A stretch of DNA of 64,000 bases from Candidatus Multivorans sp. (GCA_965220845.1 CBDCRA010000005.1:896016-960015), one strand, 5' to 3'; counted from the stretch's first letter, positions 4,060 through 51,572 are shown. Made by a program: numbers and translations. Notes: generated from the sequence alone by a model not told the origin.

Positions 4060-4109
4060 GACTCGGCCAGGTGGCGGAGTGGGACCGGGCCGGACGCCGA
4101 CCCGTCCGG

Positions 4110-4808: not shown

Positions 4809-4853
4809 GAGGGGACTGTATCGACTCGTGATCGAACCGGAGACTCGGCCCGG

Positions 4854-6418: not shown

Positions 6419-6470
6419 CCGTGAGGTGTTCCTTGTGGTTGTAGGGGCAGAGGGGGTTGTGGGGCAGGGG

Positions 6471-8060: not shown

Positions 8061-8228
8061 GGAGTCCTTGGGGTCACTGTCCGGCTCTCGCGATGGGGAA
8101 GGCCGACACCAGGACTGGCGGCGGACCGCGCTGGCCGCCTTGCAGAGGAGCGACGAGACCCCCCACCGCTTCGCCTGACGAAGGGAGCGACCCTAGGCCC
8201 AGGGGCACTGGCCAAGCGTGGCAGGGGG

Positions 8229-8303
8229 TCCGGCTCGCAGGCCCACTGCGCCTCTGACAACCAACGGTCGGACGCTAGCGCGCCGGGATGGCGTCCGTCA
8301 AAC
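8229..8303 (-). repeat. conserved ~75-nt intergenic element, copy 2
   Basis: See 3987..4059. Overlaps the stop codon of permease paralog A and sits in the 237-nt gap before permease paralog B. Confidence 0.5.
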
Positions 8304-37131: not shown

Positions 37132-39747
37132 CTAGCCTGAGTTCCCTCCCACCCAGAACGGACTCGACCACGCCATGCTGCCGTCGATCTGGCGGACGCG
37201 GAGGTAGTAGTAGTCGCCGGGCCGGACTTCGCCCTGGTCGGTGAAGCTGAACTCCTGGTCGAGGGCCCGACCCTCGGTCACGATCTGAGCCGAGAGCGCG
37301 TCCGTGTGCTCCAGCACCTGGTACTCGCGGCGCTCAACCTGGCCTTTCAGGTCGCCGAGGCGGAACCGCTCGGTGTTCGCCGGCAGTTCCTGGGGAATGC
37401 GAACGTAGCCGCCCGAGCCGCGCGACTCGGTCGTCGTCTCCATGTCGACGGTGATGACCGTGTCGGCGCTTGCGCCGCGCAACTCGAGAACGAGTGACTT
37501 CGGACGCCCACGGGTCGGGAAGTCGAAGTCGATCCGGTTCCGGTCTTCCGCGTTGCGGGCGGTTCGCCAGGTCGCGGGCTGCGTGAACCAGGGATCGTCG
37601 TGGTCGACCAGTTCGGCTCCGGCGACGTGGATCGCTCCTCTCCACGGTCGGCCGCCGCGTGGAGGCGTGCGCTCGCCGTGGATCTCGGTCGACGACTCGA
37701 AGGTGATCTGCACCCGCGCTTCCCCGGACAGAGCGCTCTCCAGGTATCTCCGGGTGTAGACGATCGCACCGTTCTTGATCACGTCGATGGCGTCGATCGG
37801 GGCCGTGCCGCTGACCCGGCAGTCGATCCGGCGCACGGCGGCCCCTTCCTGGCGGGTGCCCATGCGGGCGCCGTTGAGCGTCGCTTCGAGGAGGATCCGC
37901 TCGCCGGTGGTCGCATAGGCGGCCCGTTCGCGGAGCGCGTTGAAGATGGCATCGGCGTTGTTCTCCGCCGCGTAGACGGCGGCCAGACCGCCCAGTTGCC
38001 GGTTGCCGGCCCCGGAGTACCCGGGATGGCCGTTGTGGTTGTCGGAGGCGCCGATGAATCCGACCTCGAAGCCGTTCTGCAGGTACTTGTTGCCGAACCA
38101 GTCGAAGGTGCCGTGGCCGGACTGGATCTCGACCAGCCGCCCCAGGTCCGGATCGCTGTTCGTCCAGTCGGCGGGCTGGTGGGCGTGGGGGATGACCAGC
38201 ACGTCGTCGTTGCTGTTCCGGTCGCGCAGCCCCGCGTACAGCTCGTCGAGCAGGGGCGCCTCCTGGTTCGGAACCCGGCTGCGGCCGGGCGTGTCGCGGA
38301 AGAACACGTTGTGGTGCCCGCCGAGCGGCGACCGCGACGTCCACTCGAAGCCGAGGATCGTCGTGAATTCGCCTTCGATGCGGTACTCCTCGACCAGCTC
38401 CTGCAGCTTCCGCCACTCACTGTCGTCCATCCAGATGTCGTGCTCGGAGAGGCTCAGGAAGTCGAGCCGGGCCACTTCGCGGCCGAACCGGTAGTAGCCG
38501 TCCGGCGAGCCCTGGCCTTCGGCGAAGGCGGTGTGGCCGTGGGTCTCGCCCCAGTAGACGCGGTGAGCGGAGTCCTCCTCGACGCGGACGGGATTGCTCG
38601 TCGCCCGGATCGATCCGTCCTCGTTCCGGACGGAGAAGCGGTAGACGCCGGGTGCGGCCAGGCTCACGTCCTCGAGCAGCGAGATGGCGGGACTGCCGGC
38701 TTCGATCGTGCGGAACGGCTCGCCGTCCAGCAGCACCTCGAGCGCGGGCGTGACGCCGGACGACAGGTTCTTCAGCCGGTCCTCGGCGCGAACGGCCAGC
38801 GTAAAGGGCTCGCCCGGCGCAACGATCGACGGGGCGACGGCGTTGACGTAGCGGACCTCGTCGCGGCCCAGCACCTCGAAGGAAGGCCAGGCCGGTCGCA
38901 GCAGGTCGCCCGTGCCTTCGATGTCGGCGTAAAGGTGCAGGATCACCTGGTCGTTGGAGGTTTCCTGCAGCGTGAATCCGGGTCCGCCCCCTGAGGTGTC
39001 GCCGTAGGTGATGGTGATCGTGTCGCCTTCATCGAGCGACGCACCGCTCAGACGGAACTGCAGCACGGCGCGAGGGACGCCGGCGCGCGCCTGGCCGCCG
39101 CGGTTGCCGAAGTGCATCCCCCGCCAGTCTCCCCATGGTTCGCTGGCGGTCAGCGTCGCGTCCGGATTCGACGTCTCGACCGAGACGTAGTTCCGGCCCG
39201 CCGGGTCCTCGGCCTGAACGCCGGTCCGCCGCGCTCCGCGCACCAGGATGCCGCCGCCCTCCGCCATGCCGAGCGTGCCCACGGTGTAGGTCAACCGGAC
39301 CGTCACCTGGTCGCCGGCGCGGAAGGGACCGGGCGGGTCGAGCGTCAGCGTGCCGACCGCCTCCGGGTGTTCGTCCTTGATCTGGAACTCCCGGGTGTAG
39401 AGGCGGATGAATTCCGAGACTCTCGGCACCGGAATCGTCGCTCCCCCTCCGAGCCCCCGGAGTGAACGGTTCGCGTTCGCGAGAAGCTGCGGGAAGACGT
39501 CGGGGATCGGCCCGCCGGTGAGGGAGTAGGCGTTCGACCACTGCCACAGCGTGTCGAGCCGATCGCTCAGGACGGCGATGTCTTCGGTGGTCTCAGGCGC
39601 CTCCAGCTTCAGCGCCTCGACGCGTTGGCGCAGGTCGGGAGAGAGGTAGTCGCCCGAGTCGCCGCCGGTGCAGCCTTGAGTGATGAGTGCCAGGACGAGC
39701 GGACACAGGATCACCAGGAGGTTTGCAGAGCGGCGTCGTTTCGACAT
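37132..39747 (-). CDS. DUF3604 domain protein (PHP-like metal-dependent phosphoesterase fold), lipoprotein
   Basis: Start ATG 39747 (MSKRRRSANLLVILCPLVLALITQGC). DUF3604 signature region (WGETHGHTAFAEGQGSPDGYYRFGREVARLDFLSLSEHD ... VIPHAHQ). Confidence 0.7.
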   Translation of the reverse strand: MSKRRRSANLLVILCPLVLALITQGCTGGDSGDYLSPDLRQRVEALKLEAPETTEDIAVLSDRLDTLWQWSNAYSLTGGPIPDVFPQLLANANRSLRGLGGGATIPVPRVSEFIRLYTREFQIKDEHPEAVGTLTLDPPGPFRAGDQVTVRLTYTVGTLGMAEGGGILVRGARRTGVQAEDPAGRNYVSVETSNPDATLTASEPWGDWRGMHFGNRGGQARAGVPRAVLQFRLSGASLDEGDTITITYGDTSGGGPGFTLQETSNDQVILHLYADIEGTGDLLRPAWPSFEVLGRDEVRYVNAVAPSIVAPGEPFTLAVRAEDRLKNLSSGVTPALEVLLDGEPFRTIEAGSPAISLLEDVSLAAPGVYRFSVRNEDGSIRATSNPVRVEEDSAHRVYWGETHGHTAFAEGQGSPDGYYRFGREVARLDFLSLSEHDIWMDDSEWRKLQELVEEYRIEGEFTTILGFEWTSRSPLGGHHNVFFRDTPGRSRVPNQEAPLLDELYAGLRDRNSNDDVLVIPHAHQPADWTNSDPDLGRLVEIQSGHGTFDWFGNKYLQNGFEVGFIGASDNHNGHPGYSGAGNRQLGGLAAVYAAENNADAIFNALRERAAYATTGERILLEATLNGARMGTRQEGAAVRRIDCRVSGTAPIDAIDVIKNGAIVYTRRYLESALSGEARVQITFESSTEIHGERTPPRGGRPWRGAIHVAGAELVDHDDPWFTQPATWRTARNAEDRNRIDFDFPTRGRPKSLVLELRGASADTVITVDMETTTESRGSGGYVRIPQELPANTERFRLGDLKGQVERREYQVLEHTDALSAQIVTEGRALDQEFSFTDQGEVRPGDYYYLRVRQIDGSMAWSSPFWVGGNSG

Positions 39748-39799
39748 GTTGCCCAGTACGATAGCGGGCTGACCTACTTGGGAGATCGGGATTCTGAGA

Positions 39800-40966
39800 A
39801 TGGACCGGCGAAGACTGCTCGTGGACGGGCTGGCTCTGGCAGCCGGCCTGGGTCTGAGTCCCCTGAGGCTCGTTTCCCAGGAAGCCTCCTCGACGCGAGC
39901 CACCACTCAACTCGAACCGGAAGGCTTCTTCACCCTCGGGCAACGTCAGGGCCACTGGTGGTTCGTGGACCCGGCGGGCAAGCCGTTCTTCTCGATCGGC
40001 CTGAACCACTTCGACCCGGCGAGCCTCCGCTACCCGGAGAACATCGACATCTGGCGTGAGAAGTACGGAGGCAGCACGATCCGATGGATCAGGGAGTCGG
40101 TCGCTCCCAACCTCAAGGCTTGGGGTTTCAACACCGTCGGTTGGGTTCAGGAGGTGTCCGTGCGGGAGTGGCGGCACTCGCGTTCGTTCACCGTCGACGA
40201 GTACCGGGCGCTGGAGATGCCCTACTGCCATCTACTTCCCTTCATGGAATCCCACCAGTGGGAGAAGCACACGGTTCACTACGACTTCCGTAGCGCCGAC
40301 TGGCAGGAATGGTGCGACTACTTGGCCAGGTCGCATTGTGCGGAACTGGCGGATGACCCGAACCTGATCGGCTACTTCTACAGCGATTGCCCTACCTGGA
40401 TTCATGAGAGGCCGCTGAACGAGTGGCGGGGCCCGATCTTCGACCCGGAGCGACTCGAGTCGGAGGCCGGCCGCAGGGAACTGACCGAGTTGGCCTACCA
40501 TTACTACAAGACGACGCACGATGCGATCAGGCGGTACGACAGGCACCACCTGATCCTCGGCGACCGCTACGAGGCGAACGCACCCATCGCGCTACAGGTC
40601 ATCCAGGCCGCGTCGCTGTTCGTCGACGTACTGTCATTCCAGGACTTCCGTGATCCGGTCAAGCACCTCGACGAATGGCACAGGAAGACGGGAAAGCCGG
40701 TCCTGCTGGCCGATGCGGCCAGGATCAGGTGGCAGACGGCTCCGGGGGAGTTCACTCCGAACGATGGGGCGTGGTACGCGGAAACGCTGGCGGAACTGTT
40801 CGAGAATCCGGGATGTGTGGGCTTCCATCTCTGCGGGGCCTACCAGCGGAACAAGGCGCGCCGCTACGGGCTGCTCGATGAGATGGAGAATCCCGACACT
40901 GAGCAGGTGGAGATGATGACGGTCGCCAACCGGAGAATTGACCGGTTAATGGCCGAGCGCTTCTGA
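39800..40966 (+). CDS. Tat-signal secreted protein, putative glycoside-hydrolase-like TIM-barrel protein
   Basis: Twin-arginine signal MDRRRLLVDGLALAAGLGLSPL. Aromatic and acidic residue-rich (W/Y/E) sequence. Family not confidently identified. Confidence 0.5.
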   Translation: MDRRRLLVDGLALAAGLGLSPLRLVSQEASSTRATTQLEPEGFFTLGQRQGHWWFVDPAGKPFFSIGLNHFDPASLRYPENIDIWREKYGGSTIRWIRESVAPNLKAWGFNTVGWVQEVSVREWRHSRSFTVDEYRALEMPYCHLLPFMESHQWEKHTVHYDFRSADWQEWCDYLARSHCAELADDPNLIGYFYSDCPTWIHERPLNEWRGPIFDPERLESEAGRRELTELAYHYYKTTHDAIRRYDRHHLILGDRYEANAPIALQVIQAASLFVDVLSFQDFRDPVKHLDEWHRKTGKPVLLADAARIRWQTAPGEFTPNDGAWYAETLAELFENPGCVGFHLCGAYQRNKARRYGLLDEMENPDTEQVEMMTVANRRIDRLMAERF

Positions 40967-42190
40967 GCCCTGGTCGGCCGGCTCGTCGCCGTCGCCACGG
41001 GTCATCGTGTCGACCGTGGTCGCGGCGCACATGTGGGCAATGACATTGGCCGCCGAGCGGAAGACGTCGGGCACGCGGTCGATCCCCAGCAGGATGCCGA
41101 GTCCCGCCAGGGGTACGCCCACGACGTCAAGCGCCGGCGCCAGCGACACGATGCTGGCGCTTGGCACCGGAGCGACCGTCATCGCGGCGAGGAAGATCGC
41201 CAGCACCGCCGCGGCGATCAGCCCCGCGTCGAGCGGCACGCCGTAGATCTTCGCCAGGAAGACGAGCGACGCGCTCTGGAACAGCGCGCTGCCGGGGCGG
41301 TTGATCGAGGCCGCCAGCGGCAGGATTAGCGTGTACTTGCGCTCGGACAGGCCGAGCTTCTTCGCCTCCTGCAGCATCATGGGCAGCGTTCCCACGGACG
41401 TCGTCGTGGTGAAGCCCACGGTGTAGGTGCCCACGGTCGCCCGGATGAAGCGTCCGGGCGGTACGCCGCCCAGGAACCAGACCGCGGGCAGGAGAACGAG
41501 GCCCTTCAGGATGAAGAGGCCCGCCACCACGGCGACGATGAAGACGGCGAGGTTCTGCAGCATCGCCGCCCCCGTCTTCGCGATGACCGGCGCCGCGAGA
41601 CCGAAGACGCCCACCGGCGCCGTCCACAGGATCCAGCTCATCAGCTTCGTCAGAGCGTCGCCCAGGGCCTCCGCGAAGGCCGTGAGCGTCCGTTGCTTCT
41701 CGCTCGGCAGGGTGGTCGTCGCCGCGGCCAGGAGGACGACGAAGATGAGGAGGGAGAGCAGCGCCCCGTCGGCGGCGACCTGAACCGGATTCCGCGGCAC
41801 GAGGTTGACCAGAAAGTCCACGATGCCCACACCGGCGGTGTCCAGGTTCTCTACGGGCGTGGGTGGCGCCACCGGCGCCGCGAACGTCAGGGCGAAGCCC
41901 ATGACCCCCATGCCGATCAGGATCGCCGGCAGCGTCGTCGCCCAGAAGAAGCCCACGGCGAGTCCCCCCAGCTGTCCGAGCTTCCGCAGGTCGCCGATCC
42001 GCCCCACGCCGACGAAGACGACCGCCGCCACCAGCGGAATGACGACCATCTGGATCGCCCGCAGGAAGATCTGCCCGAGCGGCTCGACCCCCTCGGCGGC
42101 CCGCAGCAGCGCCGGCGAACCCGTCGCGGAGGCGGCGATGCCGAGCCCCAGGCCGAGCGCCAGGCCGATGAGAATGGCGCGTGTGTTCAC
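40946..42190 (-). CDS. dicarboxylate/amino acid:cation symporter (DAACS, GltP/DctA-like)
   Basis: Typical DAACS topology and motifs. Start placed at GTG 42190 (MNTRAILIGLALGLGLG, canonical N-terminus). The track start at 42286 would overlap vapC by 38 nt. Confidence 0.8.
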   Translation of the reverse strand: MNTRAILIGLALGLGLGIAASATGSPALLRAAEGVEPLGQIFLRAIQMVVIPLVAAVVFVGVGRIGDLRKLGQLGGLAVGFFWATTLPAILIGMGVMGFALTFAAPVAPPTPVENLDTAGVGIVDFLVNLVPRNPVQVAADGALLSLLIFVVLLAAATTTLPSEKQRTLTAFAEALGDALTKLMSWILWTAPVGVFGLAAPVIAKTGAAMLQNLAVFIVAVVAGLFILKGLVLLPAVWFLGGVPPGRFIRATVGTYTVGFTTTTSVGTLPMMLQEAKKLGLSERKYTLILPLAASINRPGSALFQSASLVFLAKIYGVPLDAGLIAAAVLAIFLAAMTVAPVPSASIVSLAPALDVVGVPLAGLGILLGIDRVPDVFRSAANVIAHMCAATTVDTMTRGDGDEPADQGSEALGH

Positions 42191-42248
42191 AGGGGAGATG
42201 GGCCGTTCTTCCCAGTCCGCGTTTGCGAACGGCAGGGCATGTCCGTCG

Positions 42249-42671
42249 TCACGATGCGGGCGGTTCGGCGAACGGATTGACCACACGCACGCCGTCGTAG
42301 TTCTGGCCGTGGTTCAGATCTTCGGAGTAAACCGCGTCGCAGCCCAATGCGCGAGCCGCAGCGAGGATCGCTCCGTCCCAGTAGGCGATCCGGTAGCGCC
42401 GGCTGAGCCTCACCGCCTCCTGGAAGATGTCGACCGTCATCGGTTGGATGCGAAACGACAGCATCGGTTGCAAGAAGACCAAGGCGTCAGCGTGAGACAG
42501 ATGGGCCGGGCGGGTGGGCCGCGTGACCTGGTGGTAGAACTCCTGGAGAACCTGGACCGACAGGGCCAGATCGCCTGCGTCAAGCAGGCTCTGCGCCGCC
42601 CGCTGCTTGGCGACCTCTCCCGGGGCCGGGCTTGCGGCGTAGATCAGGACGTTCGTGTCGACGAATCGCAC
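42249..42671 (-). CDS. vapC: type II toxin VapC (PIN-domain ribonuclease)
   Basis: MRFVDTNVLIYA... PIN acidic residues present. Confidence 0.85.
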   Translation of the reverse strand: MRFVDTNVLIYAASPAPGEVAKQRAAQSLLDAGDLALSVQVLQEFYHQVTRPTRPAHLSHADALVFLQPMLSFRIQPMTVDIFQEAVRLSRRYRIAYWDGAILAAARALGCDAVYSEDLNHGQNYDGVRVVNPFAEPPAS

Positions 42672-42683
42672 CAGATCCCAGGG

Positions 42684-43010
42684 TCACCGCGAGTCACGGG
42701 GACCGGCGGCGATCTGAGCCTCCGCTCTCGCCCTGTCGCGGTCGTAGAGTTCTTCTCGGGACAGGTTGTCCGCAGCGGAGAAACCGGGCGAGTTGATGCG
42801 GATCCTCTCGATTGCGTCGTTCAGCATCCGACGGCGCTGCTCTACGTCGCTGGGACTCGGCGTGCTGGCCGTCAAGCGTCTGGCACCTTCGGGCGTCAGG
42901 CCCTGCAGGTACTCCCTAACCAGTGCGGAAACGGAGGTGTCGAGTTCCGCTGCACGGATGCGGGAGTTCCGGTAGGTCTCGTCGTCGACGGATACGGTGA
43001 TGTTCCTCAT
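42684..43010 (-). CDS. vapB: type II antitoxin, ribbon-helix-helix (VapB/CopG-like)
   Basis: Start ATG 43010 (MRNITVSVDDETYRNSRIRAAELDTSVSALVREYLQ). 12 nt upstream of vapC. Confidence 0.75.
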   Translation of the reverse strand: MRNITVSVDDETYRNSRIRAAELDTSVSALVREYLQGLTPEGARRLTASTPSPSDVEQRRRMLNDAIERIRINSPGFSAADNLSREELYDRDRARAEAQIAAGPRDSR

Positions 43011-43095
43011 GGCCACAGCCTCACGGTTCCTGTGCTGCACAGCATACCAGCGGCTTCGGACATCGGGAAGCCGCGTCGGTCGGTCCGCGCCGATG

Positions 43096-43281
43096 CTACG
43101 ACGCCTTCCCCTGCTGGGGTCGCGCTGCCAGACGGCGCAGGAGCGGGTCCGAGAATTCTCGAGTGTTCAGCCAATCAACCCGCTCTTCGGGCGACATCCG
43201 AGCCATCTTGGCGCTGAGGCGATCCCGGATCTCTCGTACGGACGCCACGCAGTCGTAGTCCTTCTCGGCCTTGGTCGTCAT
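43096..43281 (-). CDS. small hypothetical protein (61 aa)
   Basis: GAGGAG 7 nt upstream of ATG 43281. Composition is non-low-complexity (MTTKAEKDYDCVASVREIRDRLSAKMARMSPEERVDWLNTREF...). Confidence 0.5.
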   Translation of the reverse strand: MTTKAEKDYDCVASVREIRDRLSAKMARMSPEERVDWLNTREFSDPLLRRLAARPQQGKAS

Positions 43282-44295
43282 CTTCCAGCTCCTCGGGGCT
43301 CAGCATGTCTGAGCATGGTACAGCCCATCTCGCGGTCTGACGTCATTGAACGCGTGCTTCGACGTGTTGTAGAACTCTTGCCGGGCCGCCCGTCGGTGGC
43401 CTTGGTCTTGTTGCAGCAACGGCCTTCATCGCTGCGTGCTGTTTCGGGTGCGGGGGTGCTGCGACCGAGACGACTTGGCCACCCACAACACTCTCAACGA
43501 CCGCGCGCGGCCGCCGGGCACATGGCCAGCGGCGGGTCATGCTCGAGGAGGAACTGAACAATGCGTTGGACTCCCATGGAACCAGACATCGGCGAGGAGG
43601 ATGGCTTCACGGACGAGACCGATATCTTCGGGTACAAGCAGTTCGGCTTGGGACTCGCCAAGATCTTGGCGGTTTCGGTAGACGATCCGGTCCTACTGGT
43701 GGACGGTGATTGGGGGACCGGGAAGACGATCTTCGCGCGTCAATGGGCCGGTCTCCTTCGGCAGCAGGGAAACGCTGTTCTCTACTTCGACGCCTTCGCA
43801 TCGGACTACCAGGACGACGCCTTTCTCGCACTGGTGGATGCGGTCTACGACTTTGCGGAGACCGAGAATCTCGCCAAGGAGGACCGCCGAGCCTTCAGCT
43901 CCAGGGCGGCAAAGGCCGGGGCCTTGGGGCTGGCAAAGAGCCTAGGCCGGCATGTCGTTCCTGGTGTGGACCTAACCGCTGTGGCCGAAGAAGTGGTGCG
44001 AGCCACGAAGTTTGAGACTTCTCAGCTCACGGCATGGATCGAGGATTCTCGAGCTAGGCGAGACGCGATCAGCAAGTTCCGCGACTCCCTTGAGAAGCTT
44101 GCGAAGGCAGCCGTCCGAATGGGCGCGGAGGAGGCCGCGGATGCGTCTCCCGAGGGTGACGCTCTGGACGAGGAACGTAACGAGCGTCGCTTGGTCGTCA
44201 TCGTAGACGAGTTGGATCGGTGCAAGCCCGACTTCGCTCTTAGTGTCCTCGAGCGGATCAAGCACGTCTTCGGTGTTCCTGGCCTGCGCTTTGTA

Positions 44296-46050
44296 CTAGC
44301 CCGCATATCTCACGGGGTGATTTGAGATCGGGCCTCTTCCCGCGGATAATCCAAGTGTTGTCAAGCATTTGGACAGTCCACAGGAGCGAGACCCGTGAAG
44401 ACAGAGTGTACTCCGTCGCAGCTTGAGTTCGGTTTCCACGGTCGCCGCCGTGTGACGGCCTGTTTCGACGGTGGCCGTTTGACGACGGAGGGCGGCGGGC
44501 TGCTGCTTCGGGAGACGGATACGCGAATCGGTCTGCTGGATCGCATGGCGTCGTGTTTTCGGGATCACCGGGATCCGTCGGCGGTGGAGCACACGGTGCG
44601 GGACCTGGTCTCTCAGCGGGTCTACGGTCTGGCTCTGGGCTACGAGGACCTGAATGACCACAATCAGCTTCGCCTCGACGCGTTCATGGCGCTGCTGGTG
44701 GGCAAGTCGGACATCACGGGCGCCGATCGTCGGCGGTCGCGGGACAAGGGTCGTCCCCTGGCGAGCGCATCGGGGTTGAATCGTCTGGAGTTGTCGCGGC
44801 CGGAGGAGGCACAAGGTAGCCGCTACAAGCGGACTCCGGCGGACGGCGCGGCCCTGGACGGCCTGCTGGTGGACCTGTTCCTGGAGGCTTTCGAGGAGGC
44901 GCCGGAGGAGATCGTGCTGGATCTGGACGCGACCGACGATCCGCTGCACGGGGAGCAGGAGGGTCGGTTCTTCCACGGCTACTACCGGTGCTACTGCTAC
45001 ATGCCGCTGTACGCGTTCTGCGGCGAGCACCTGCTGCTGGCGCGTCTGCGGCGGTCGGACCAGGACGCCAGCGCCGGGACGGTCCGCGAGTTAGCGCCGA
45101 TCGTCGCCCGGATCCGGGAGGCGTGGCCGGACACCCGGATCGTCCTGCGCGGCGACTCGGGCTTCTGCCGGGAGCGGATCATGGCCTGGTGCGAGAGGGA
45201 AGGGCTCTTCTACGTGTTCGGCGTGGCAAGGAATCCGCGCCTTGCGAGGCGGCTCGCCAAAGCGCTTGCGAAGTCGCGGCGGCGATTTCATGCGACCGAA
45301 AAGCCCTCGCGGCGGTTCCGGGAGTTCCGCTACAGGACCCGCTCCTCCTGGTCCCGCAAGAGGCGGGTGGTGGGCAAGGCGGAGTGGCTCCAAAAGGGCG
45401 GCAATCCCCGCTTCATCGTCTCCAATCTGCCCAAGAGCCGCGCCGGCAAGCAGGCGCTCTACGAGCTGCTCTACTGCGCCCGTGGCGACATGGAAAACCG
45501 GATCAAGGAGCAGCAGCTCGATCTCTTCGCCGACCGCACCTCCACCGCCACCATGGCCGCCAATCAACTCCGCCTCTACTTCTCCTCCTTCGCCTACGTC
45601 TTGCTCGCCGCCGTGCGACGCCTCGCTCTGGCCGACACCGACAAGGCCCACCTCCAGTGCGGCACCATCCGCCTGCGCTTCTTCAAGATCGCCGCACGAC
45701 TGCGCATCACCCATCGCCGCATCTGGGTCCACCTGGCCAACGTCTTCCCCTGGCAAAACGACTTCGCACAGGCCCTGGCAAACCTCCAGAGAAAACCCCT
45801 CTACCACCCGCCGGCCTGAGACCGGACGAAAACCGACACCACAACGCGGCGCCTTGCATCGACTCCACGCCCAGAGTGCGCCCGAAAACCGCACCGAACC
45901 GCTGCGGACAAGCCACTCCGACGCCGAAATGAACCGACTCCGACTCCGCAGGACACCTGACCAGCCACCGACAGACCAGGACGGCATTCAAGGGGACTGC
46001 CCACCCCGAACTCAGCCCTCACGCCCGAGCCGGTGAAACATGCGGGCTAG
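44296..46050 (+). mobile_element. IS1380-family insertion sequence (~1.75 kb)
   Basis: Imperfect ~20-bp terminal inverted repeats: CTAGCCCGCATATCTCACGG at 44296 versus the reverse complement of CGGTGAAACATGCGGGCTAG ending at 46050. Contains a single transposase ORF. Target-site duplication not clearly resolved. Confidence 0.75.
44395..45819 (+). CDS. IS1380-family DDE transposase
   Basis: GTG start with AGGAG upstream. 474 aa. Family-typical N-terminus (FDGGRLTTEGGGLLLRE) and GYEDLNDHNQLRLD... motifs. Confidence 0.85.
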   Translation: MKTECTPSQLEFGFHGRRRVTACFDGGRLTTEGGGLLLRETDTRIGLLDRMASCFRDHRDPSAVEHTVRDLVSQRVYGLALGYEDLNDHNQLRLDAFMALLVGKSDITGADRRRSRDKGRPLASASGLNRLELSRPEEAQGSRYKRTPADGAALDGLLVDLFLEAFEEAPEEIVLDLDATDDPLHGEQEGRFFHGYYRCYCYMPLYAFCGEHLLLARLRRSDQDASAGTVRELAPIVARIREAWPDTRIVLRGDSGFCRERIMAWCEREGLFYVFGVARNPRLARRLAKALAKSRRRFHATEKPSRRFREFRYRTRSSWSRKRRVVGKAEWLQKGGNPRFIVSNLPKSRAGKQALYELLYCARGDMENRIKEQQLDLFADRTSTATMAANQLRLYFSSFAYVLLAAVRRLALADTDKAHLQCGTIRLRFFKIAARLRITHRRIWVHLANVFPWQNDFAQALANLQRKPLYHPPA

Positions 46051-46826
46051 TCACAAACTTCGCCGAGCTTGAGCAGTCGGTAAGGCGAGCCTACGGAGAT
46101 GTAGGAGCGAGGAAGTACCTGGAGAAGTTCTACGATCTTCGAGTGCGACTTCCTGAAAGCCGGGGACCGAGAGGATTCTCCACGAAGACCGCCGTGTACG
46201 CCCGGCGCCTGCGCGAGACACTCTCTGAAGCGGGCCTTGGCGTATCAGTTGAGATCGAGAACCCGCTTCGATCTCTGGCCGACTCAGAGCAGATGAGTCT
46301 TCGGACCATGGAGCACGTAGCCCGTAACATCCTCGTGTTGGCGGCAAACCGCCGTACTTACTATGGCCGTGACGAAGTGGCAGTCGCCCTGATCAGCGCT
46401 ATCCGAGTCGTCAAGCCCGAGCTCTTCAGGCGGATCGAGCGGGGCGAGGCTCAGGAGACAGATGAGGAGGTCCTGAAGATGAAAGTTCGTTGCCCTAAAG
46501 CCGCAGGGACGCCGCTTGCCCCCGGACTCTGAAGAGTACGAAAGGCGGCTGCGTGAGCAGCAGGCGGAAGTGCTGAGGGCCGACTGGGGACTAAGGGACG
46601 CTGCCAGAGTACTTAAGGCATTTGACATCTGATCCCTGTGGCGTTTGAGTACGGGGACGAGGATGCCCTTGCAGGGGACTTAGAACTACTCCCCCACCCT
46701 GGAGCCGCGTGTCCGGCGCGAATAGTCCGACTGACCGGGGCAAGCCCCGGCCGAACGAAGTCGTGGCAACCCGGTTGCTGAGTTGCGTTAGATTTGGAGA
46801 ACCCGTGCTTGGCTCGGAGGCAGTAA

Positions 46827-47501
46827 CTAGGGAGGAGAGAGGAAGACGTTTCTGGCGACTTTCCCGATCGCGTACGTTGTAGAGGCGTCAAACCCTCCGC
46901 CGACGATGCCGCCGGCCACGGGAATGAACTTGTGAATGTTCACGATACCCTTTTCTCCGAACTTGGTAAGAAGACGGAAACCTACCGCCTTGTTTATTCC
47001 AATGAGCGTGTCGCCGGGTATTGCCTTGATTGCAGTGGCCGCCAGTTTCTTGCCGATCTCAATGCCGGTCGACTTGAGGATGTCTGTCGCTGCCTTGCCG
47101 CAGAGGCATGCGTAGCAGAGAGTTCTGACATCATCACGTCCGGTGTCGTGTCCTCCGAGATGAGCGATCGCTGCGATCATTCGTACCTGCAAGAAGAGAA
47201 CGCCCACGAGGTTCGCCGGAACTCCTATAGGCATGGTGATGAGACCGCCGAGGCCCGTCACGAATCCGGTAGTGCCGGCCTTCAGTACCTGCCAACGCAC
47301 CAGTCGGCGCGCTGCTTCATCGGTTGAGAGCGGCTCTTGGCGGGGCGGTTTCCTGTAGTCATCCGCGAGCTTGTAGGCATCAGCCATCTCTGTGGCTGAC
47401 TTCTGGCCTAGCCGCGGTATCCCCTCGACTGCGTAGTCGTAGAGCGAGTCGAGTAGTTTGAGGAGCCGGTCGCGTTCGGCGGGATTCTCTTCACTGGGCA
47501 T
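46827..47501 (-). CDS. EcsC family protein
   Basis: 224 aa. EcsC-like sequence. Region noticeably lower in GC than the flanks. Confidence 0.55.
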   Translation of the reverse strand: MPSEENPAERDRLLKLLDSLYDYAVEGIPRLGQKSATEMADAYKLADDYRKPPRQEPLSTDEAARRLVRWQVLKAGTTGFVTGLGGLITMPIGVPANLVGVLFLQVRMIAAIAHLGGHDTGRDDVRTLCYACLCGKAATDILKSTGIEIGKKLAATAIKAIPGDTLIGINKAVGFRLLTKFGEKGIVNIHKFIPVAGGIVGGGFDASTTYAIGKVARNVFLSPP

Positions 47502-47547
47502 CGGTGATTCGTGCTGGTTCAGACCAATGCGCTGTTGCGGCGTAACC

Positions 47548-49002
47548 CTACGCCCACAAACCCCGGATCAGCTCGCCCTTGACCAGCTCCCGCGGCTGGT
47601 CGAGGTGATTCAGGATCTCCATCGCCGGATCGATCCCCAGGGTGTAGTAGACCGTGGCCAGCAGGTCGTTCGGGTGGACCGGCTTCTCGCGGGGGGCGGA
47701 GCCGGTCTCGTCGGACTCGCCGTAGAGCTGGCCGCGGGAGACGCCGGCGCCGGCGACCAGGGCGGTGTAGCAGTAGGGCCAGTGGTCGCGGCCGTCCGGG
47801 GAGTTGCTGTTGCCGGAGGTGCTGACGCCCAGCCTGGGTGAACGGCCGAACTCGCCGACGGCGACGACGAGGGTCTCGTCGAGCAGGCCCCTATCGTCCA
47901 TGTCGGAGAGCAGCGCCGAGAGCGCGCGGTCGAGGACGGGGCAGTGCAGGTTCTTGAGCGGGGCGAAGTTCGCGGCGTGGGTGTCCCAGGAGTCGACTTC
48001 GGGGTTGCCGTTGGCGACCGCGGGCCAGTTGAGCTGGACGAAGCGCGTGCCGGCTTCGATCAGCCGCCGCGCCATTAGGGCGCCCTGGCCGAAGGTGTTC
48101 TTGCCGTAGCGCTCGCGCATCTCGTCGCTCTCGTTGGCCAGATCGAAGGCCTGGCGGGCCTTGCCGGAGAGGACGAGGTCGTAGGCCTTCTCGTAGTACT
48201 CGTCGAGGGCGGAGTCGGCGACCGCCTTCTCGAGTTCGGGCAGGGAGGCGTTCAGGCCCTTGCGGAGCTCGAAGCGGCCGGCGAGGCGCTCGGGCGAGGT
48301 CTCCTCGCGGAGTTCCAGGTCGCTGAGTTCGATCGGCTGGTTCGGGTCCTGGTAGAGGCGGTAGGGGTCGTAAGCCTTGCCGAGGAAGCCGGCGGCGCCG
48401 CCCTTGCCGATCACGTTCGACTCCTGGAGCGGCCGCGGCATCTCGACGAAGGGGAGCATCGCGTCGTCGAGAGGCCTGAGCCTGGAGATGTGGGAGCCGG
48501 CGGTCGGAAAGTCGGCCGGCGTGGGCGGCTCGAGCTGGCCGGAGGGCGAGACGCGGTCCGGCGGGTAGCCGGTCAGCATCTGGTAGATCGCCGCGGTGTG
48601 GTTGAAGAGCCCCTTGGGGGTGTAGCTCATCGAGCGGATCAGGGTGCACTTGTCGACCTGATCGGCCAGCAGCGGCATCGTCTCGGAGAGCCGGATGCCG
48701 TCGACCTTCGTGTCGATGGCGCCGAACTCGCCGCGAATGTTCGAGGGCGCGTCGGGCTTCGGATCCCAGATGTCGATGTGACTGGGGCCGCCCTGCAGGA
48801 AGAGCAGGATGACGGACTTCGCGCTGCCGAAGCCCTTGCCGCCGGCGAAGGCGTCAGCAGCGACGGTCGCGGCGTGCGCGTCACGGAGCGCGAGCGTCTG
48901 GCTGAGGGAGATGCCGAAGATGCCGAGCGAGCCGACGCGGAGGAACTCCCGCCGGGTCGGGCCGTCGCAGGTATGGCCGGACTGTCCTGGAATGACGAGC
49001 AT
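47548..49002 (-). CDS. DUF1501 domain protein (sulfatase-like, Tat-secreted; PSD pair partner)
   Basis: AGGAG 6 nt upstream of ATG 49002. Tat motif TRREFLRVGSLGIFG. 8 nt downstream of the DUF1549/1553 gene. Confidence 0.85.
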   Translation of the reverse strand: MLVIPGQSGHTCDGPTRREFLRVGSLGIFGISLSQTLALRDAHAATVAADAFAGGKGFGSAKSVILLFLQGGPSHIDIWDPKPDAPSNIRGEFGAIDTKVDGIRLSETMPLLADQVDKCTLIRSMSYTPKGLFNHTAAIYQMLTGYPPDRVSPSGQLEPPTPADFPTAGSHISRLRPLDDAMLPFVEMPRPLQESNVIGKGGAAGFLGKAYDPYRLYQDPNQPIELSDLELREETSPERLAGRFELRKGLNASLPELEKAVADSALDEYYEKAYDLVLSGKARQAFDLANESDEMRERYGKNTFGQGALMARRLIEAGTRFVQLNWPAVANGNPEVDSWDTHAANFAPLKNLHCPVLDRALSALLSDMDDRGLLDETLVVAVGEFGRSPRLGVSTSGNSNSPDGRDHWPYCYTALVAGAGVSRGQLYGESDETGSAPREKPVHPNDLLATVYYTLGIDPAMEILNHLDQPRELVKGELIRGLWA

Positions 49003-49010
49003 GGAGTCTC

Positions 49011-51572
49011 CTACGAGTTGAAGAGGAAGGCGTTCGAGTTGAGAAGCGCCCACATCAGGTCCTGGGCGGCGGCGGTGCGGCTGCGTGCGGCCTCGAAGTG
49101 ACCCTCGGCGAGCGCGGATTCATCGTCCGTGGGGTAACGGCCGAGGGTGGCGAGATAGAGCTCGGCGATCAGTTCCTCGTTGTCCCTGCCGGAGAGCACC
49201 AGGTTCGCCACCCGGCCTTCCGGGTCGGCGATCGCGTCGGCGATGACGGAGCCGTTCAGCAGGCTCAGCGCCTGCGGCAGGCTCATCTCCGTCTTCCGCT
49301 CGCACTCGCAGGCGGTTTCGCGGTCCGGCTTGCCGAACAGGTCGAGGAAGCCCTCGATCCCCATGCTCGCCGTCATCACGTGCGGGTCGGGCAGGGCCGT
49401 CGCGTCGAAGTCCTCGGGCAGGGTGTCGATCTCGAAGCGGGAGCCGGTGGCGCGGGCGACGGCGTCGGCCAGCTGCTCGGCGCTGAGCCGTCGCGGTTCG
49501 TGATGGGAGAAGTTGATCCGGTCGTCCTCGTTCCATTCGTTCGTGCGGAACGATGCCTGGTAGGCGCGCGACGTGGCGATCGTCCGCATCAGGTGGCGGA
49601 GGTCGAAGTCGTTCTCGATCAGGTCCGCGGTCAGTGCGTTGAGCAGGTCCGCGTTGACCGGCTGGTTCGAGGCCCGGATGTCGTCGACCGGGTCGATGAT
49701 CCCCCGGCCCATGAAGTAGCTCCACACGCGGTTCGCGATGGCCGGGGCGAAATACGGGTTCTCCGGCGAGGTCAGCCACTCCGCGAGTGCGGCGCGGCGT
49801 CCGAGGCCCTCGCCGAGGTCCGGCGCGCCCTCGACCGGCACCAGGTACTTCGGCGGCACGACGGCGTTCGTCTTGGGGTGCAACTGCTCGTTGTCCCTGC
49901 GCTTGTCGAACACGATTTCCTCGCCGGTGCGGAAGCCCGGGCGGACGCCGAGGCCGGCGAAGAAGGCGGTCATCTCGTAGTACTGGTTCTGGGTCCAGCG
50001 CTCGAACGGGTGGTCGTGGCACTGGGCGCAGACCATCCGTACACCCATGAAGAGCTGGGTCGTGGTCTCCATCGCCTCCTTCGGGTCGCGGGCGGCGCGG
50101 TAGTAGCTGGCGGCCGGCTGGTCGAGGGTGCTGCCGGAGGCAGTGACCAGTTCGCCCACGAGCCGGTCGTAGGGCCGGTTCTCCTCGATCGCCTCCCTCA
50201 GCCAGCCGCGGAAGGTGAGCATGCCCTTGTAGCTCATGAACTTCCGGTTGCTGCGCAGGAGATCGCCCCACTTGAGCGTCCAGTGGTCGACGTAGGCGTC
50301 GCTCGCGATCAGCTCGTCGACCAGGCGGTTCCGCTTCTCCTGGGTCGCCGCGTCGTCTTCGAGGAACGCGCGCACCGCCTGCGGGCTCGGGATCCGGCCG
50401 GTGAGGTCGAGCGAGGCGCGGCGCAGGAACGCCGCGTCGTCGACCGCGGCCGAGGGCAGGACCTCGATCCGCTGGAGCTTCGTGTCGATCAGCTCGTCGA
50501 TGTAGTTGGCCTGGGGCAGGGCGGTCCATTCGAAGCCCTCGCGGCCGCTGAGGACGGTGACCGGGGCGGTCGTGAACTGTCCCTCGTAGCGCACGAGCAG
50601 CGTGCTCTCCCCGCGGCGCAGACCCGTGGCGACGGGGCCGGAGGGCGTTTCCTCGATCGCCATCGTCTCCGTGTTGCTGCTCGTGATGTGGGCCTCGCGG
50701 GTCACGTCGCGGCTGCTGCCGTCGCCGTAATGGGCCATGACGATCGTCTGCTGGCTCATCCCGGGCCGGTGCATGAAGACCTCGCCGGGATGGATCGTCA
50801 GGCGCTCGACCCGGTCGGTCGCCGGGTCGCCGTAGGGAACGCCGCCGGAGATCCAGTCGAGGATCTGATTGTAGTAACGAGATCCGTGGTCGAGCCGCAG
50901 GCCGCCCTCGTGCGCGACCTGCATCGTCGGCTTGGCGAGCATCAGCGAGCGCGCGGGCTCGGCGCGGTTGAAGCGCCGGCCGGACATGTCGTACAGCAGC
51001 GACTGGTAGTCGAACTCCGGGTCGTAGCCGCGAAGCGACAGCTTGAAGCCGTTCTTGCCCTTGGCCGCGCCGTGGCAGGTGCCCGTGGAGCAGCCGATCT
51101 TGTTCATCGCGGGCAGGACGTCGCGGACGAAGGTGACGGGGGGTGCGGCGTTGGCGGTCGCGGCGGCGTGGACCGTGACCGGTACGGTGGCGGCGAGGCC
51201 GCCGGCGTGGATGGCGAGGGAGCCTTTGCCGGAAGTGGTCGGTGTGAAGTAGCCGTCGTCGCCGCGCTCGACGGGGGCGCTGGTCGTGTCGACTTCGGCT
51301 TCGCCGGTGAGGTCGATGCGTTCGCCGCTTTCGAGGATGCCCGTGACGAGGAGCTTGCGGGAGTCGCGGGGGTTGTCGAAGGTGAGTTCGGCGGGGTGGA
51401 TGAGGAGGTCGACGGGGGTTGTGGCGGCGCCGGCGGGCAGGGCCATCGCGGCTAGGGCGATGAGCAGGAAGGCGGTACGGGCTCGCCGCTGCGCGGCATC
51501 GCGCCTGATGCGGGTCAGAAGACCCGCGCACCCAGTGGTTCGGGTGGCGGTGCACCCAGCGAGACGTTTCAT
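49011..51572 (-). CDS. DUF1549/DUF1553 domain protein with Ig-like and PSCyt (CxxCH) modules
   Basis: Signal peptide. CSTGTCHG heme-binding-like motif. DUF1549 and DUF1553 regions (MVCAQCHDHPFERW..., FFAGLG...). Confidence 0.85.
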   Translation of the reverse strand: MKRLAGCTATRTTGCAGLLTRIRRDAAQRRARTAFLLIALAAMALPAGAATTPVDLLIHPAELTFDNPRDSRKLLVTGILESGERIDLTGEAEVDTTSAPVERGDDGYFTPTTSGKGSLAIHAGGLAATVPVTVHAAATANAAPPVTFVRDVLPAMNKIGCSTGTCHGAAKGKNGFKLSLRGYDPEFDYQSLLYDMSGRRFNRAEPARSLMLAKPTMQVAHEGGLRLDHGSRYYNQILDWISGGVPYGDPATDRVERLTIHPGEVFMHRPGMSQQTIVMAHYGDGSSRDVTREAHITSSNTETMAIEETPSGPVATGLRRGESTLLVRYEGQFTTAPVTVLSGREGFEWTALPQANYIDELIDTKLQRIEVLPSAAVDDAAFLRRASLDLTGRIPSPQAVRAFLEDDAATQEKRNRLVDELIASDAYVDHWTLKWGDLLRSNRKFMSYKGMLTFRGWLREAIEENRPYDRLVGELVTASGSTLDQPAASYYRAARDPKEAMETTTQLFMGVRMVCAQCHDHPFERWTQNQYYEMTAFFAGLGVRPGFRTGEEIVFDKRRDNEQLHPKTNAVVPPKYLVPVEGAPDLGEGLGRRAALAEWLTSPENPYFAPAIANRVWSYFMGRGIIDPVDDIRASNQPVNADLLNALTADLIENDFDLRHLMRTIATSRAYQASFRTNEWNEDDRINFSHHEPRRLSAEQLADAVARATGSRFEIDTLPEDFDATALPDPHVMTASMGIEGFLDLFGKPDRETACECERKTEMSLPQALSLLNGSVIADAIADPEGRVANLVLSGRDNEELIAELYLATLGRYPTDDESALAEGHFEAARSRTAAAQDLMWALLNSNAFLFNS

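What the first reader, a model, noticed from the sequence alone, without database searches (positions are those of the whole stretch)
42249..47540. Low-GC accessory islet: VapBC, orphan small gene, KAP NTPase disrupted by IS1380, EcsC
Between the DAACS transporter and the first DUF1501 gene, the GC content visibly drops (especially 46050-47500). The segment carries mobile or defence-associated genes: a vapBC toxin-antitoxin pair, a KAP-family P-loop NTPase (often defence-island associated) split by a complete IS1380-family element with ~20-bp imperfect inverted repeats, and an EcsC-family protein. Likely a horizontally acquired defence or addiction islet now decaying.
Basis: partly seen in the sequence, partly recalled or inferred. 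Interest (0 to 1): 0.55.

Follow-up and report, generated by a model that had tools for sequence, protein, structure and literature searches.

The report
Decaying defence islet at a hotspot
This is an ordinary, partly broken cluster of toxin-antitoxin and candidate anti-phage genes sitting at a spot in a sponge-associated acidobacterial genome where related strains carry different defence genes, most often restriction-modification systems.

Summary
Window 42191-47547 is a 5.36-kb insert (3.6 kb without the IS) between the stop of a DUF1501 gene and the start of a DAACS/SDF transporter. Several relatives (Acidobacteriota, Thermoanaerobaculia, 'Ca. Multivorans'-like MAGs, not Planctomycetes) have only a 30-bp spacer there. 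Others carry 1 to more than 10 kb of different cargo, mostly type I R-M systems and PIN toxin-antitoxin pairs. The islet is the lowest-GC stretch of the window (61.7% against 68.8% for core genes).

It holds:
- an intact vapBC-like pair;
- a 61-aa gene that is not an orphan, because its family sits directly after hsdM in type I R-M operons;
- a newly recognised hsdM remnant with a ~2.1-kb internal deletion;
- a KAP NTPase (PADLOC candidate PDC-S20) broken by a 1747-bp IS1380 element with a CTAG target duplication, and also by a 1-bp frameshift;
- an intact stand-alone EcsC-like gene (PADLOC candidate PDC-S29).

A 99.4%-identical metagenome scaffold has the empty site and an intact 439-aa KAP gene, so the IS insertion is recent. 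KAP and EcsC are not an obligate pair. Nothing here is categorically new. The small hsdM-trailing protein family is the only uncharacterised item.

The parts
42191..47547 (.). Whole variable islet between the DAACS/SDF start codon (GTG, 42188-42190, minus strand) and the DUF1501 stop codon (47548-47550, minus strand)
   Evidence: Homology to empty-site relatives L009, L013 and L023 breaks at 47547 and at 42190 (42215 in L003). In the empty sites only a 30-bp spacer separates the two genes.
42249..42671 (-). vapC-like PIN-domain toxin gene, 140 aa, apparently intact
   Evidence: Pfam PIN 3.3e-14. Acidic residues D5, E44, D99 and E117/D118 are present. Homologues of 62-68% identity lie next to DAACS in L006, L007, L016, L018 and L020.
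42684..43010 (-). vapB-like antitoxin gene, 108 aa (start MRNITV; an upstream GTG at 43040 is possible)
   Evidence: It lies 12 nt upstream of vapC. It has a weak DUF6364 hit (E = 0.005). Paralogous island ORFs hit DUF6364 at 5e-8, and a DUF6364-PIN pair is called in L092. The same 108-aa gene is called in L001.
43096..43281 (-). 'small61': 61-aa basic protein (pI 9.5) of an unannotated family that normally follows hsdM
   Evidence: There are 7 synonymous and 2 conservative differences to the L001 allele. The family has 281 cluster representatives, with no Pfam, PDB or Foldseek match. It sits directly after hsdM in L084, L082/83 and L090-L093.
43282..43419 (-). hsdM pseudogene remnant: the last ~70 nt of hsdM fused at about 43351/43352 to a piece of codons ~66-97 (about 2.1 kb deleted internally)
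   Evidence: blastn gives 80% identity to L084 3417-3486, contiguous with small61, and 79% identity to L004 928-980. tblastn with three HsdM queries gives 47% identity over 30-32 aa, E = 6e-5 to 1.5e-4.
43561..44299 (+). KAP-family P-loop NTPase, 5' part (codons 1-246), with Walker A GDWGTGKT at residue 49 and Walker B VVIVDELD at residue 212
   Evidence: Pfam KAP_NTPase 4.5e-23. The restored protein hits PADLOC PDC-S20 at 4.8e-59, PifA at 1.4e-16 and QatA at 1.9e-15.
44296..44299 (.). Left copy of the 4-bp target-site duplication CTAG
   Evidence: There is a single CTAG at this point in the empty-site scaffold L001.
44300..46046 (+). IS1380-family insertion sequence, 1747 bp. IRL is 44300-44316 and IRR is 46030-46046 (14 of 17 positions match). 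A promoter-like site lies at 44322-44350.
   Evidence: The element is absent from L001.
44395..45819 (+). IS1380 DDE transposase gene, 474 aa, intact
   Evidence: NF033539 at 2.1e-116, 389 bits against a cutoff of 180. Pfam DDE_Tnp_1_4 at 2.3e-149.
46047..46050 (.). Right copy of the target-site duplication CTAG
46051..46632 (+). KAP NTPase 3' part. An extra A at 46482 (GAAAG against GAAG) shifts the frame at codon 390 and gives a premature stop at 46530-46532. The original stop is at 46630-46632.
   Evidence: The intact 439-aa allele is in L001 and P0288. The C-terminal motif W.L..AAR.L..FD is conserved in homologues down to 41% identity and is lost in the window version.
46827..47501 (-). 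Stand-alone EcsC-like gene, 224 aa, intact, with the lowest GC of the islet
   Evidence: Pfam EcsC at 44.2 bits against a cutoff of 30.4. PADLOC PDC-S29 at 7.3e-78, covering positions 12-214 of 220. There are 1133 homologues across phyla. A hydrophobic hairpin lies at about residues 76-116. The AF2 model is all-alpha with pLDDT 67.

Best explanation
The segment is the local version of a variable-cargo defence/addiction hotspot. The hotspot lies between two conserved core genes, DUF1501 and a DAACS/SDF transporter, in a lineage of Thermoanaerobaculia ('Ca. Multivorans'-like). Record titles of related loci suggest a sponge association.

In this lineage the slot can be empty, can hold only a vapBC pair, or can hold up to more than 10 kb built around a type I restriction-modification operon. 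Optional add-ons are a KAP NTPase or an EcsC-like gene next to DUF1501, and a PIN toxin-antitoxin pair next to the transporter.

The window carries a run-down version of this island:
- The type I R-M operon has been deleted down to a 140-nt hsdM stub plus the small gene that normally trails hsdM.
- The KAP NTPase is a single-gene abortive-infection-type candidate related to PifA and QatA. It was recently knocked out by an IS1380 element that duplicated a CTAG target, and it also carries a frameshift.
- What remains apparently functional is the VapC RNase held in check by VapB, the EcsC-like membrane-associated protein, the small basic protein and the transposase.

Shown here: the anatomy, the boundaries, the compositional deviation, the empty site, the lesions and the variability of the slot.

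Inferred: cargo is exchanged by homologous recombination through the conserved flanks, because no integrase or att repeats are present. It is also inferred that KAP and EcsC act in phage defence, and that vapBC acts as a stabilising or addiction module.
For: Synteny. DUF1501 and DAACS are separated by 30 bp in L009, L013 and L023. They are separated by vapBC only in L007, and by 2-7 kb or more than 10 kb of other genes in L006, L010, L018, L004, L005, L016-L021 and L024.

Census of 109 ORFs from 21 such islands. It found 11 HsdR, 10 HsdS, at least 7 HsdM, 10 PIN and 4 Phd/YefM, plus other methylases, ApeA, Ymh and Macro domains. The full sister island L093 reads DUF1501-KAP-hsdM-small61 x2-...-hsdS-hsdR-DAACS. 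L084 reads DUF1501-EcsC-hsdM-small61 x2-Ymh-hsdS-hsdR.

Composition. The islet is 61.7% GC against 68.8% for core genes, and KAP and EcsC have GC z-scores of -5.5 and -6.7 (GC3 z -4.0 and -4.6).

PADLOC. The hits are PDC-S20 at 4.8e-59 and PDC-S29 at 7.3e-78.

Empty site. L001 is collinear at 99.4% identity with a single CTAG and an intact 439-aa KAP.

Lesions. The frameshift removes a conserved C-terminus, and the hsdM remnant is documented.

Other negatives. There is no tRNA, no Rfam hit, no second IS copy, and no flanking direct repeats at the islet edges.
Against: No component has been tested for anti-phage activity. PDC-S20 and PDC-S29 are candidate models, and I found no paper reporting a test of either. 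The only paper in the held library that names one of them lists PDC-S29 in a table of PADLOC hits, which I did not read beyond the matched passages.

The 1-bp insertion lies in a short A run and could be a sequencing error in the window's assembly.

Three island ORFs in relatives are PQQ dehydrogenases, so the slot is not exclusively defensive.

The 5' piece of the hsdM remnant rests on short matches (53 nt, 30-32 aa).

Most relatives' loci come from one bacterial family, so they are not independent samples.
Confidence: 0.8

Rival explanations
1. KAP NTPase and the EcsC-like protein form one two-gene defence system (sensor NTPase plus membrane effector), so the IS hit disables the whole system.
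For: The two genes are adjacent in the window and in L001. Both hit PADLOC candidate models, and both have the lowest GC of the islet.
Against: The genes are convergent, with about 195 nt between their stops. The closest EcsC-like homologues (80% and 68% identity) sit next to hsdM with no KAP. The Achromobacter homologue has no KAP neighbour. KAP homologues sit next to DUF1501 and hsdM without EcsC. PADLOC names both models PDC-S; I recall, but did not check here, that the S stands for single-gene candidates.
Confidence: 0.06
2. The islet is a discrete mobile element (integrative island or IS-bounded composite transposon) that moved in as a unit.
For: The islet has low GC, and an active-looking IS1380 with an intact transposase and a promoter-like site lies inside it.
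Against: There is only one IS copy in the 64 kb, and it is absent from the otherwise identical islet in L001. There is no integrase or recombinase, no tRNA, and no direct repeats at the edges. Modules are shuffled independently among relatives.
Confidence: 0.05
3. The region is a generic accessory or 'junk' slot whose genes have nothing to do with phage defence. On this view vapBC is selfish, KAP and EcsC have housekeeping-type or unknown roles, and the low GC only reflects foreign origin.
For: None of the genes has been tested experimentally. PQQ dehydrogenases also occur in the slot in three relatives. EcsC was named after a B. subtilis ABC-transporter operon (established knowledge), not after a defence function.
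Against: The slot is dominated by bona fide type I R-M systems in relatives. EcsC-like homologues elsewhere lie beside WYL, UvrD and PDDEXK genes or R-M genes. DarT/Macro is embedded in L092. KAP is related to PifA and QatA.
Confidence: 0.09

Closest known systems
Defence islands and core-gene-flanked defence hotspots (as described for E. coli, Pseudomonas aeruginosa and Serratia; for example PMC10250203, whose abstract was seen)
   Same: It is a variable segment between two conserved core genes. It has empty, short and long occupancy states in relatives. The cargo is dominated by R-M systems, TA modules and candidate defence genes. The base composition is deviant, and IS elements and pseudogenes are present.
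   Different: The host is an uncultured Thermoanaerobaculia lineage, and the flanks are a DUF1501 gene and a DAACS transporter. The version in the window has lost its R-M core. I did not compare it directly with the published hotspots.
IS1380 family insertion sequences
   Same: It has a single DDE transposase ORF that matches NF033539 above the cutoff. It is 1.75 kb long, its terminal IRs begin with CC, and it makes a 4-bp target duplication.
   Different: No identical transposase is on record. The nearest copy held is 87% identical and partial (L074). It was not compared with ISfinder, so no IS name can be assigned.
PifA (F plasmid) and QatA, which are KAP-type P-loop NTPases of abortive-infection or defence systems, and the PADLOC candidate PDC-S20
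   Same: It has the KAP_NTPase domain with Walker A and B motifs. It matches the PDC-S20 model almost end to end, and it lies next to R-M genes in relatives.
   Different: It is much shorter than PifA (720-position model) and QatA (about 630). It scores far below the QatA equivalog cutoff (62.7 against 600 bits), and there are no qatBCD genes. No transmembrane insert is detected. In the window it is a pseudogene.
EcsC (Pfam PF12787) and the PADLOC candidate PDC-S29
   Same: It scores above the Pfam gathering threshold and gives a near full-length match to PDC-S29. It is about 210-225 aa long, like more than 1000 homologues.
   Different: It is not next to ecsA/ecsB-type ABC transporter genes in any context examined. 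It occurs as a solitary gene in variable regions.
RptR, the small repressor of type I R-M defence islands (PMC12255303, PDB 9R2Z)
   Same: The small61 family is likewise a small helical basic protein tightly associated with type I R-M operons, in islands that can embed DarTG.
   Different: There is no sequence or fold similarity. RptR is the first gene of its island and has four helices in 79 aa. small61 follows hsdM, often in tandem arrays of 1-5 copies, and has three predicted helices.

Membership tests
IS1380 family IS | DDE transposase matching the family model above its curated cutoff | tested here: met
   NF033539 at 389 bits against a cutoff of 180. PF13701 at 2.3e-149.
IS1380 family IS | Terminal inverted repeats and a short (4-5 bp) target-site duplication (from my knowledge of the ISfinder family description) | tested here: met
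   The IRs are 17 bp with 14 of 17 positions matching. CTAG is duplicated, and a single CTAG is present in the empty site L001.
VapBC type II toxin-antitoxin | PIN-domain toxin with the conserved acidic residues | tested here: met
   Pfam PIN at 3.3e-14. Residues D5, E44, D99 and E117/D118 are present.
VapBC type II toxin-antitoxin | Small antitoxin gene immediately upstream with a DNA-binding fold | tested here: inconclusive
   A 108-aa gene lies 12 nt upstream. It has only a weak DUF6364 hit (E = 0.005, below the gathering score). Related pairs in relatives hit DUF6364 or RHH models.
VapBC type II toxin-antitoxin | Toxicity of VapC that is neutralised by VapB | not testable with these tools
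   This needs expression assays.
KAP-family P-loop NTPase / PADLOC PDC-S20 | KAP_NTPase domain with Walker A and B motifs, and a match to the PDC-S20 profile | tested here: met
   Pfam at 82 bits against a cutoff of 20. PDC-S20 at 4.8e-59 over profile positions 7-363 of 464. Walker A is at residue 49 and Walker B at residue 212.
KAP-family P-loop NTPase / PADLOC PDC-S20 | Intact open reading frame | tested here: not met
   The gene is split by the IS after codon 246 and frameshifted at codon 390. The intact 439-aa allele exists in L001 and P0288.
QatABCD system | QatA equivalog score, and the presence of qatB, qatC and qatD | tested here: not met
   NF041923 scores 62.7 bits against a cutoff of 600. 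No QueC-like or TatD-like genes lie in the islet.
EcsC family / PADLOC PDC-S29 | Match to PF12787 above the gathering score, and a match to the PDC-S29 profile | tested here: met
   PF12787 at 44.2 bits against a cutoff of 30.4. PDC-S29 at 7.3e-78, covering positions 12-214 of 220.
Ecs ABC-transporter operon (ecsABC) | EcsC encoded with the EcsA ATPase and the EcsB permease | tested here: not met
   There are no ABC transporter genes beside it in the window, L001, L082-L084 or L086-L089.
Type I restriction-modification system | hsdM, hsdS and hsdR all present | tested here: not met
   Only a ~140-nt hsdM remnant is left in the window. Full sets are present in sister islands.
Defence island / hotspot | Variable gene content between conserved flanking core genes, enriched in defence genes | tested here: met
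Defence system (functional) | Protection against phage infection | not testable with these tools
   I found no experimental report for PDC-S20 or PDC-S29 in the held library. The one paper found lists PDC-S29 in a table of PADLOC hits, and I did not read whether it was assayed.
RptR-type R-M island repressor | Sequence or fold similarity to RptR (PDB 9R2Z), and position as the first gene of the island | tested here: not met
   The profile search against PDB sequences gave only a chance hit (E = 0.58). Foldseek against PDB gave nothing below E = 9. small61 lies after hsdM.

The most novel reading that the evidence does not exclude
The 61-aa 'orphan' belongs to an undescribed family of small basic helical proteins. 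It has about 281 cluster representatives and no Pfam, PDB or fold match.

Members are translationally coupled to the 3' end of a long (~815 aa) HsdM subtype and are often amplified into tandem arrays of 2-5 paralogues. The family could be a new regulatory or accessory component of type I R-M systems, for example a controller of hsdS/hsdR expression or an HsdM partner.

Its survival under purifying selection in the window, after the R-M genes were deleted, would then point to a function that is useful on its own.
Probability: 0.3. Interest if true: 0.5.

Novelty: new member of a known kind. Interest (0 to 1): 0.3.

Why it matters
The main value is as a clean, well-bounded example. An uncultured acidobacterial lineage (its relatives' MAG names suggest sponge symbionts) has a core-gene-flanked defence hotspot with empty, short and long states, and the window captures an island in the process of being dismantled.

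The population-level empty site provides an intact allele of a PDC-S20 KAP NTPase, and there is an intact PDC-S29 EcsC-like gene. Both could be cloned to test two so far unvalidated PADLOC candidates.

The hsdM-trailing small protein family is a modest new lead for people who study type I R-M regulation.

Tried and rejected
These attempts led nowhere or were rejected:

1. Planctomycete origin was suggested by the DUF1501 and PSCyt genes. It is rejected because all close loci are Acidobacteriota/Thermoanaerobaculia MAGs.
2. I looked up the source contig by exact protein. The transposase and P0001 are not on record.
3. small61 was searched against Pfam at E <= 1, against PDB by profile and against PDB by Foldseek. 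Nothing credible came back.
4. small61 relatives were sought in IMG/VR, as a test of a phage anti-restriction origin. None were found.
5. The EcsC-like AF2 model has only pLDDT 67, and Foldseek against PDB gave no hit below E = 0.3. The alpha-toxin-like top hits are not significant and were not used.
6. An exact search for the IS left end in JGI metagenome contigs gave 0 hits, so copy number in the population is unknown.
7. The Rfam scan of the islet gave no ncRNA. The terminator scan was no better than shuffles.
8. The apparent 40-bp indel in vapC between the window and L001 is an N-gap in the scaffold, not biology.
9. The apparent overlap of vapC with the transporter start comes from an over-long ORF call. 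The true start is the GTG ending at 42190.
10. A recombination patch from an L084-type allele was tested as the explanation for the SNP cluster in small61. The result is mixed, with derived states on both lineages, so this stays unresolved.

Full report
**1. What is there**

On the minus strand there are four genes:
- an SDF/DAACS transporter;
- a PIN-domain gene at 42249-42671 (Pfam PIN 3.3e-14);
- a 108-aa gene 12 nt upstream of it, at 42684-43010;
- a 61-aa ORF at 43096-43281.

On the plus strand there are three pieces:
- the first 246 codons of a KAP-family P-loop NTPase (43561-44299);
- an IS1380-family transposase (44395-45819; NF033539 at 389 bits against a cutoff of 180);
- the rest of the KAP gene, from 46051.

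An EcsC-like gene follows on the minus strand (46827-47501; PF12787 at 44.2 bits against 30.4), and then DUF1501 (47548-49053).

The IS is 1747 bp (44300-46046). Its ends, CCCGCATATCTCACGGG and CCCGCATGTTTCACCGG, match at 14 of 17 positions, and it is flanked by a duplicated CTAG. The IR core occurs nowhere else in the 64 kb. Removing the IS plus one CTAG restores the KAP reading frame.

**2. Composition**

Twenty-five core genes of the window average 68.8 +/- 1.6% GC, with GC3 of 0.886. Values for the islet genes are below.

| Feature | GC | z (GC) | GC3 |
|---|---|---|---|
| Restored KAP gene | 60.2% | -5.5 | 0.70 |
| EcsC-like gene | 58.2% | -6.7 | 0.67 |
| vapC, vapB, small gene | 64-65% | -2.3 to -3.1 | not listed |
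| IS (transposase) | close to host values | -1.4 | 0.85 |

Without the IS the islet is 61.7% GC. The lowest-GC 3.6-kb stretch of the whole window falls inside it.

**3. Empty site and second lesion**

The exact EcsC-like protein is also encoded on a 3.8-kb metagenome scaffold (L001; ENA ERZ23495034). L001 is collinear with window 42139-44299 plus 46047-47701 at about 99.4% identity. It has one CTAG where the window has CTAG-IS-CTAG. This proves a genuine and recent IS1380 transposition that is polymorphic in the population.

L001 encodes an intact 439-aa KAP protein. Relative to it, the window has an extra A at 46482 (GAAAG against GAAG). This shifts the frame at codon 390 and ends the ORF 100 nt early. 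The lost C-terminus carries a motif, W.L..AAR.L..FD, that is conserved in homologues down to 41% identity. The window copy is therefore doubly inactivated, unless the single-base difference is a homopolymer sequencing error.

**4. Host and boundaries**

A scan of species-representative genomes with the transporter returned 80 loci. All close ones are Acidobacteriota, either Thermoanaerobaculia or 'Ca. Multivorans' MAGs (taxonomy). Some of the related loci carry sponge-derived species names, for example Ca. Palauibacter rhopaloidicola and irciniicola. The DUF1501 and PSCyt genes had suggested Planctomycetes, and that is wrong.

The slot between DUF1501 and DAACS takes several states:
- In L009, L013 and L023 the DUF1501 stop and the transporter start are separated by a 30-bp GC-rich spacer.
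- In L007 only a vapBC pair intervenes.
- In L003, L006, L010, L011, L012, L018 and L022 there are 0.8-7 kb of other genes.
- In L004, L005, L016, L017, L019-L021, L024 and L051 there are more than 10 kb.

Homology with the window breaks exactly at 47547 and at 42190-42215. The islet is therefore 42191-47547, and the transporter starts at the GTG ending at 42190, not at the upstream GTG that overlaps vapC.

There is no integrase, no tRNA, no flanking direct repeat and no second IS. I therefore infer that cargo is exchanged by homologous recombination through the conserved flanks.

**5. What the slot carries elsewhere**

I called ORFs in the slot of 21 relatives with a codon-usage model and scanned 109 of them. 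The counts were:
- 11 HsdR;
- 10 HsdS;
- at least 7 HsdM;
- 10 PIN;
- 4 Phd/YefM;
- further DNA methylases;
- ApeA, Hypoth_Ymh, Macro and HATPase_c_3 domains;
- 3 PQQ dehydrogenases.

Complete sister islands were read through gene calls:
- L093 is DUF1501 - KAP (55% identical, same strand) - hsdM - small61 - small61b - two genes - hsdS - hsdR - DAACS.
- L084 is DUF1501 - EcsC-like (68%) - hsdM - small61 - small61b - Ymh - hsdS - hsdR.
- L082/83 are DUF1501 - EcsC-like (80%) - an 83-aa gene - Phd/PIN - hsdM - small61 - ... - hsdS.
- L092 has DarT and Macro between hsdS and hsdR.

This is a defence hotspot built around a type I R-M operon.

**6. The hidden hsdM remnant**

The 279-nt 'intergenic' region between the small gene and KAP is not neutral spacer. 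The 70 nt upstream of small61 are 80% identical to the last 70 nt of hsdM in L084 and are contiguous with small61. At about 43351/2 they are joined to 53 nt that match hsdM codons ~71-88 (79% to L004). Three HsdM proteins align to 43325-43419 at 47% identity over 30-32 aa, with E = 6e-5 to 1.5e-4.

The window lineage, and L001 with it, therefore descends from an R-M-bearing island. It lost about 2.1 kb from inside hsdM, and it also lost hsdS and hsdR.

**7. The small gene**

It is a real gene. Its 9 differences from the L001 allele are 7 synonymous plus D36E and P55S. The family has no Pfam, PDB or Foldseek match. The predicted structure is three helices at pLDDT 72, and the pI is 9.5. The family has 281 cluster representatives among 1.84 billion proteins and no relative in IMG/VR.

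In every held locus where upstream DNA is visible, the first copy begins -7 to +28 nt from the stop of a long (~815 aa) HsdM, and 1-5 tandem paralogues follow. Of 41 hits, 29 lie within 1.5 kb downstream of hsdM, and the rest are at locus edges or further along the same array. Three of the four more distant JGI loci show the same arrangement.

It is not RptR, the published small repressor of type I R-M islands (PMC12255303). It lacks similarity to RptR and occupies a different position in the operon. Its function is unknown. A regulatory or HsdM-associated role is the best guess.

**8. KAP and EcsC-like**

The restored KAP protein matches PADLOC PDC-S20 (4.8e-59), and more weakly PifA and QatA. 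It scores far below the QatA equivalog cutoff and there are no qatBCD genes. No transmembrane insert was detected.

The EcsC-like protein matches PDC-S29 nearly end to end (7.3e-78). It has more than 1000 homologues at about 50-55% identity in Vibrio, Achromobacter, Serratia, Salisaeta and Polyangiaceae. It contains one hydrophobic hairpin. Its model has only moderate confidence and no significant structural neighbour.

In Achromobacter the gene sits between glmS and a block of WYL, UvrD and PDDEXK genes. The two genes are convergent and do not travel together in relatives, so they are independent units. I found no report testing either candidate. In the held library PDC-S29 appears once, in a table of PADLOC hits that I read only at the matched passages, and PDC-S20 does not appear at all.

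**9. Mechanism**

Most likely (0.8) this is a decaying defence/addiction islet.
- VapC (with D5, E44, D99 and E117/D118) is an RNase toxin neutralised by the upstream antitoxin, and it would stabilise the region.
- The KAP NTPase would have acted as a single-gene abortive-infection-type NTPase and is now dead.
- The EcsC-like protein is a membrane-associated candidate effector of unknown action.
- The IS1380 element has an intact transposase and a promoter-like TTGAGA-17-GATAAT site at 44322-44350, so it may still be active.

The anatomy, the history and the variability are shown here. The defence function and the mode of cargo exchange are inferred.

**10. Verdict**

The finding is correct and now well explained, but it is ordinary: known kinds of elements in a known kind of arrangement, in a new host lineage. 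The hsdM-trailing small protein family is the only uncharacterised item.

Noticed in passing
window 40946-42190 (-), and loci L025-L081: The DAACS/SDF transporter is 77-86% identical at the protein level in MAGs labelled Gemmatimonadota/Longimicrobiales ('Ca. Palauibacter'), Gammaproteobacteria and Bryobacterales. A few Gemmatimonadota loci are only 60-63% identical. Identity this high across phyla suggests horizontal transfer, perhaps among sponge symbionts to judge from the MAG names.
   Followed up: no
window 39800-40966 (+): A 388-aa gene with no Pfam hit and lowered GC (62.6%, z = -3.9) lies on the other side of the transporter. It is found only in L002 and L009 among relatives. The distance between DAACS and the next conserved gene (924 aa, 37132-39906) varies from about 80 nt to 1.7 kb among relatives, so this looks like a second small variable slot.
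   Followed up: partly
window 43119-43216 (inside the 61-aa gene) and 47571-47692 (3' end of DUF1501): Differences between the window and the 99.4%-identical scaffold L001 are clustered. Nine fall within 98 nt of the small gene, and five fall within the last ~125 nt of DUF1501 at the islet edge. The rest of the 3.7 kb is about 0.2% divergent. The cause could be gene-conversion or recombination patches, or noise at the contig end. An outgroup comparison was not decisive.
   Followed up: partly
L092 9823-11548: A DarT/Macro (DarTG-like) pair is embedded between hsdS and hsdR of a type I R-M operon. This is the same arrangement as the EPEC RRDM island described in PMC12255303, but in an acidobacterial contig.
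   Followed up: no
L084 1052-3496, L090 4563-7004, L093 11471-13918: The HsdM proteins of these islands are unusually long (813-825 aa). Beyond the N6_Mtase domain they have a C-terminal extension of roughly 300 aa, on my recollection that typical HsdM proteins are about 500-550 aa. The extension gives a weak PIN hit in L090 and L093. The small61 genes always follow this long form.
   Followed up: no
window 6471-9956 (-): Two adjacent long ORFs (529 and 552 aa) have lower GC3 (0.80 and 0.76) and lower GC (66.5% and 63.2%) than the core genes. This may be another acquired segment.
   Followed up: no
L086-L089 (Achromobacter) 3648-6624: The EcsC-like homologue in Achromobacter lies between glmS and a block of WYL, UvrD-like and PDDEXK genes. 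From memory, the region downstream of glmS is the classical Tn7 attachment region.
   Followed up: no
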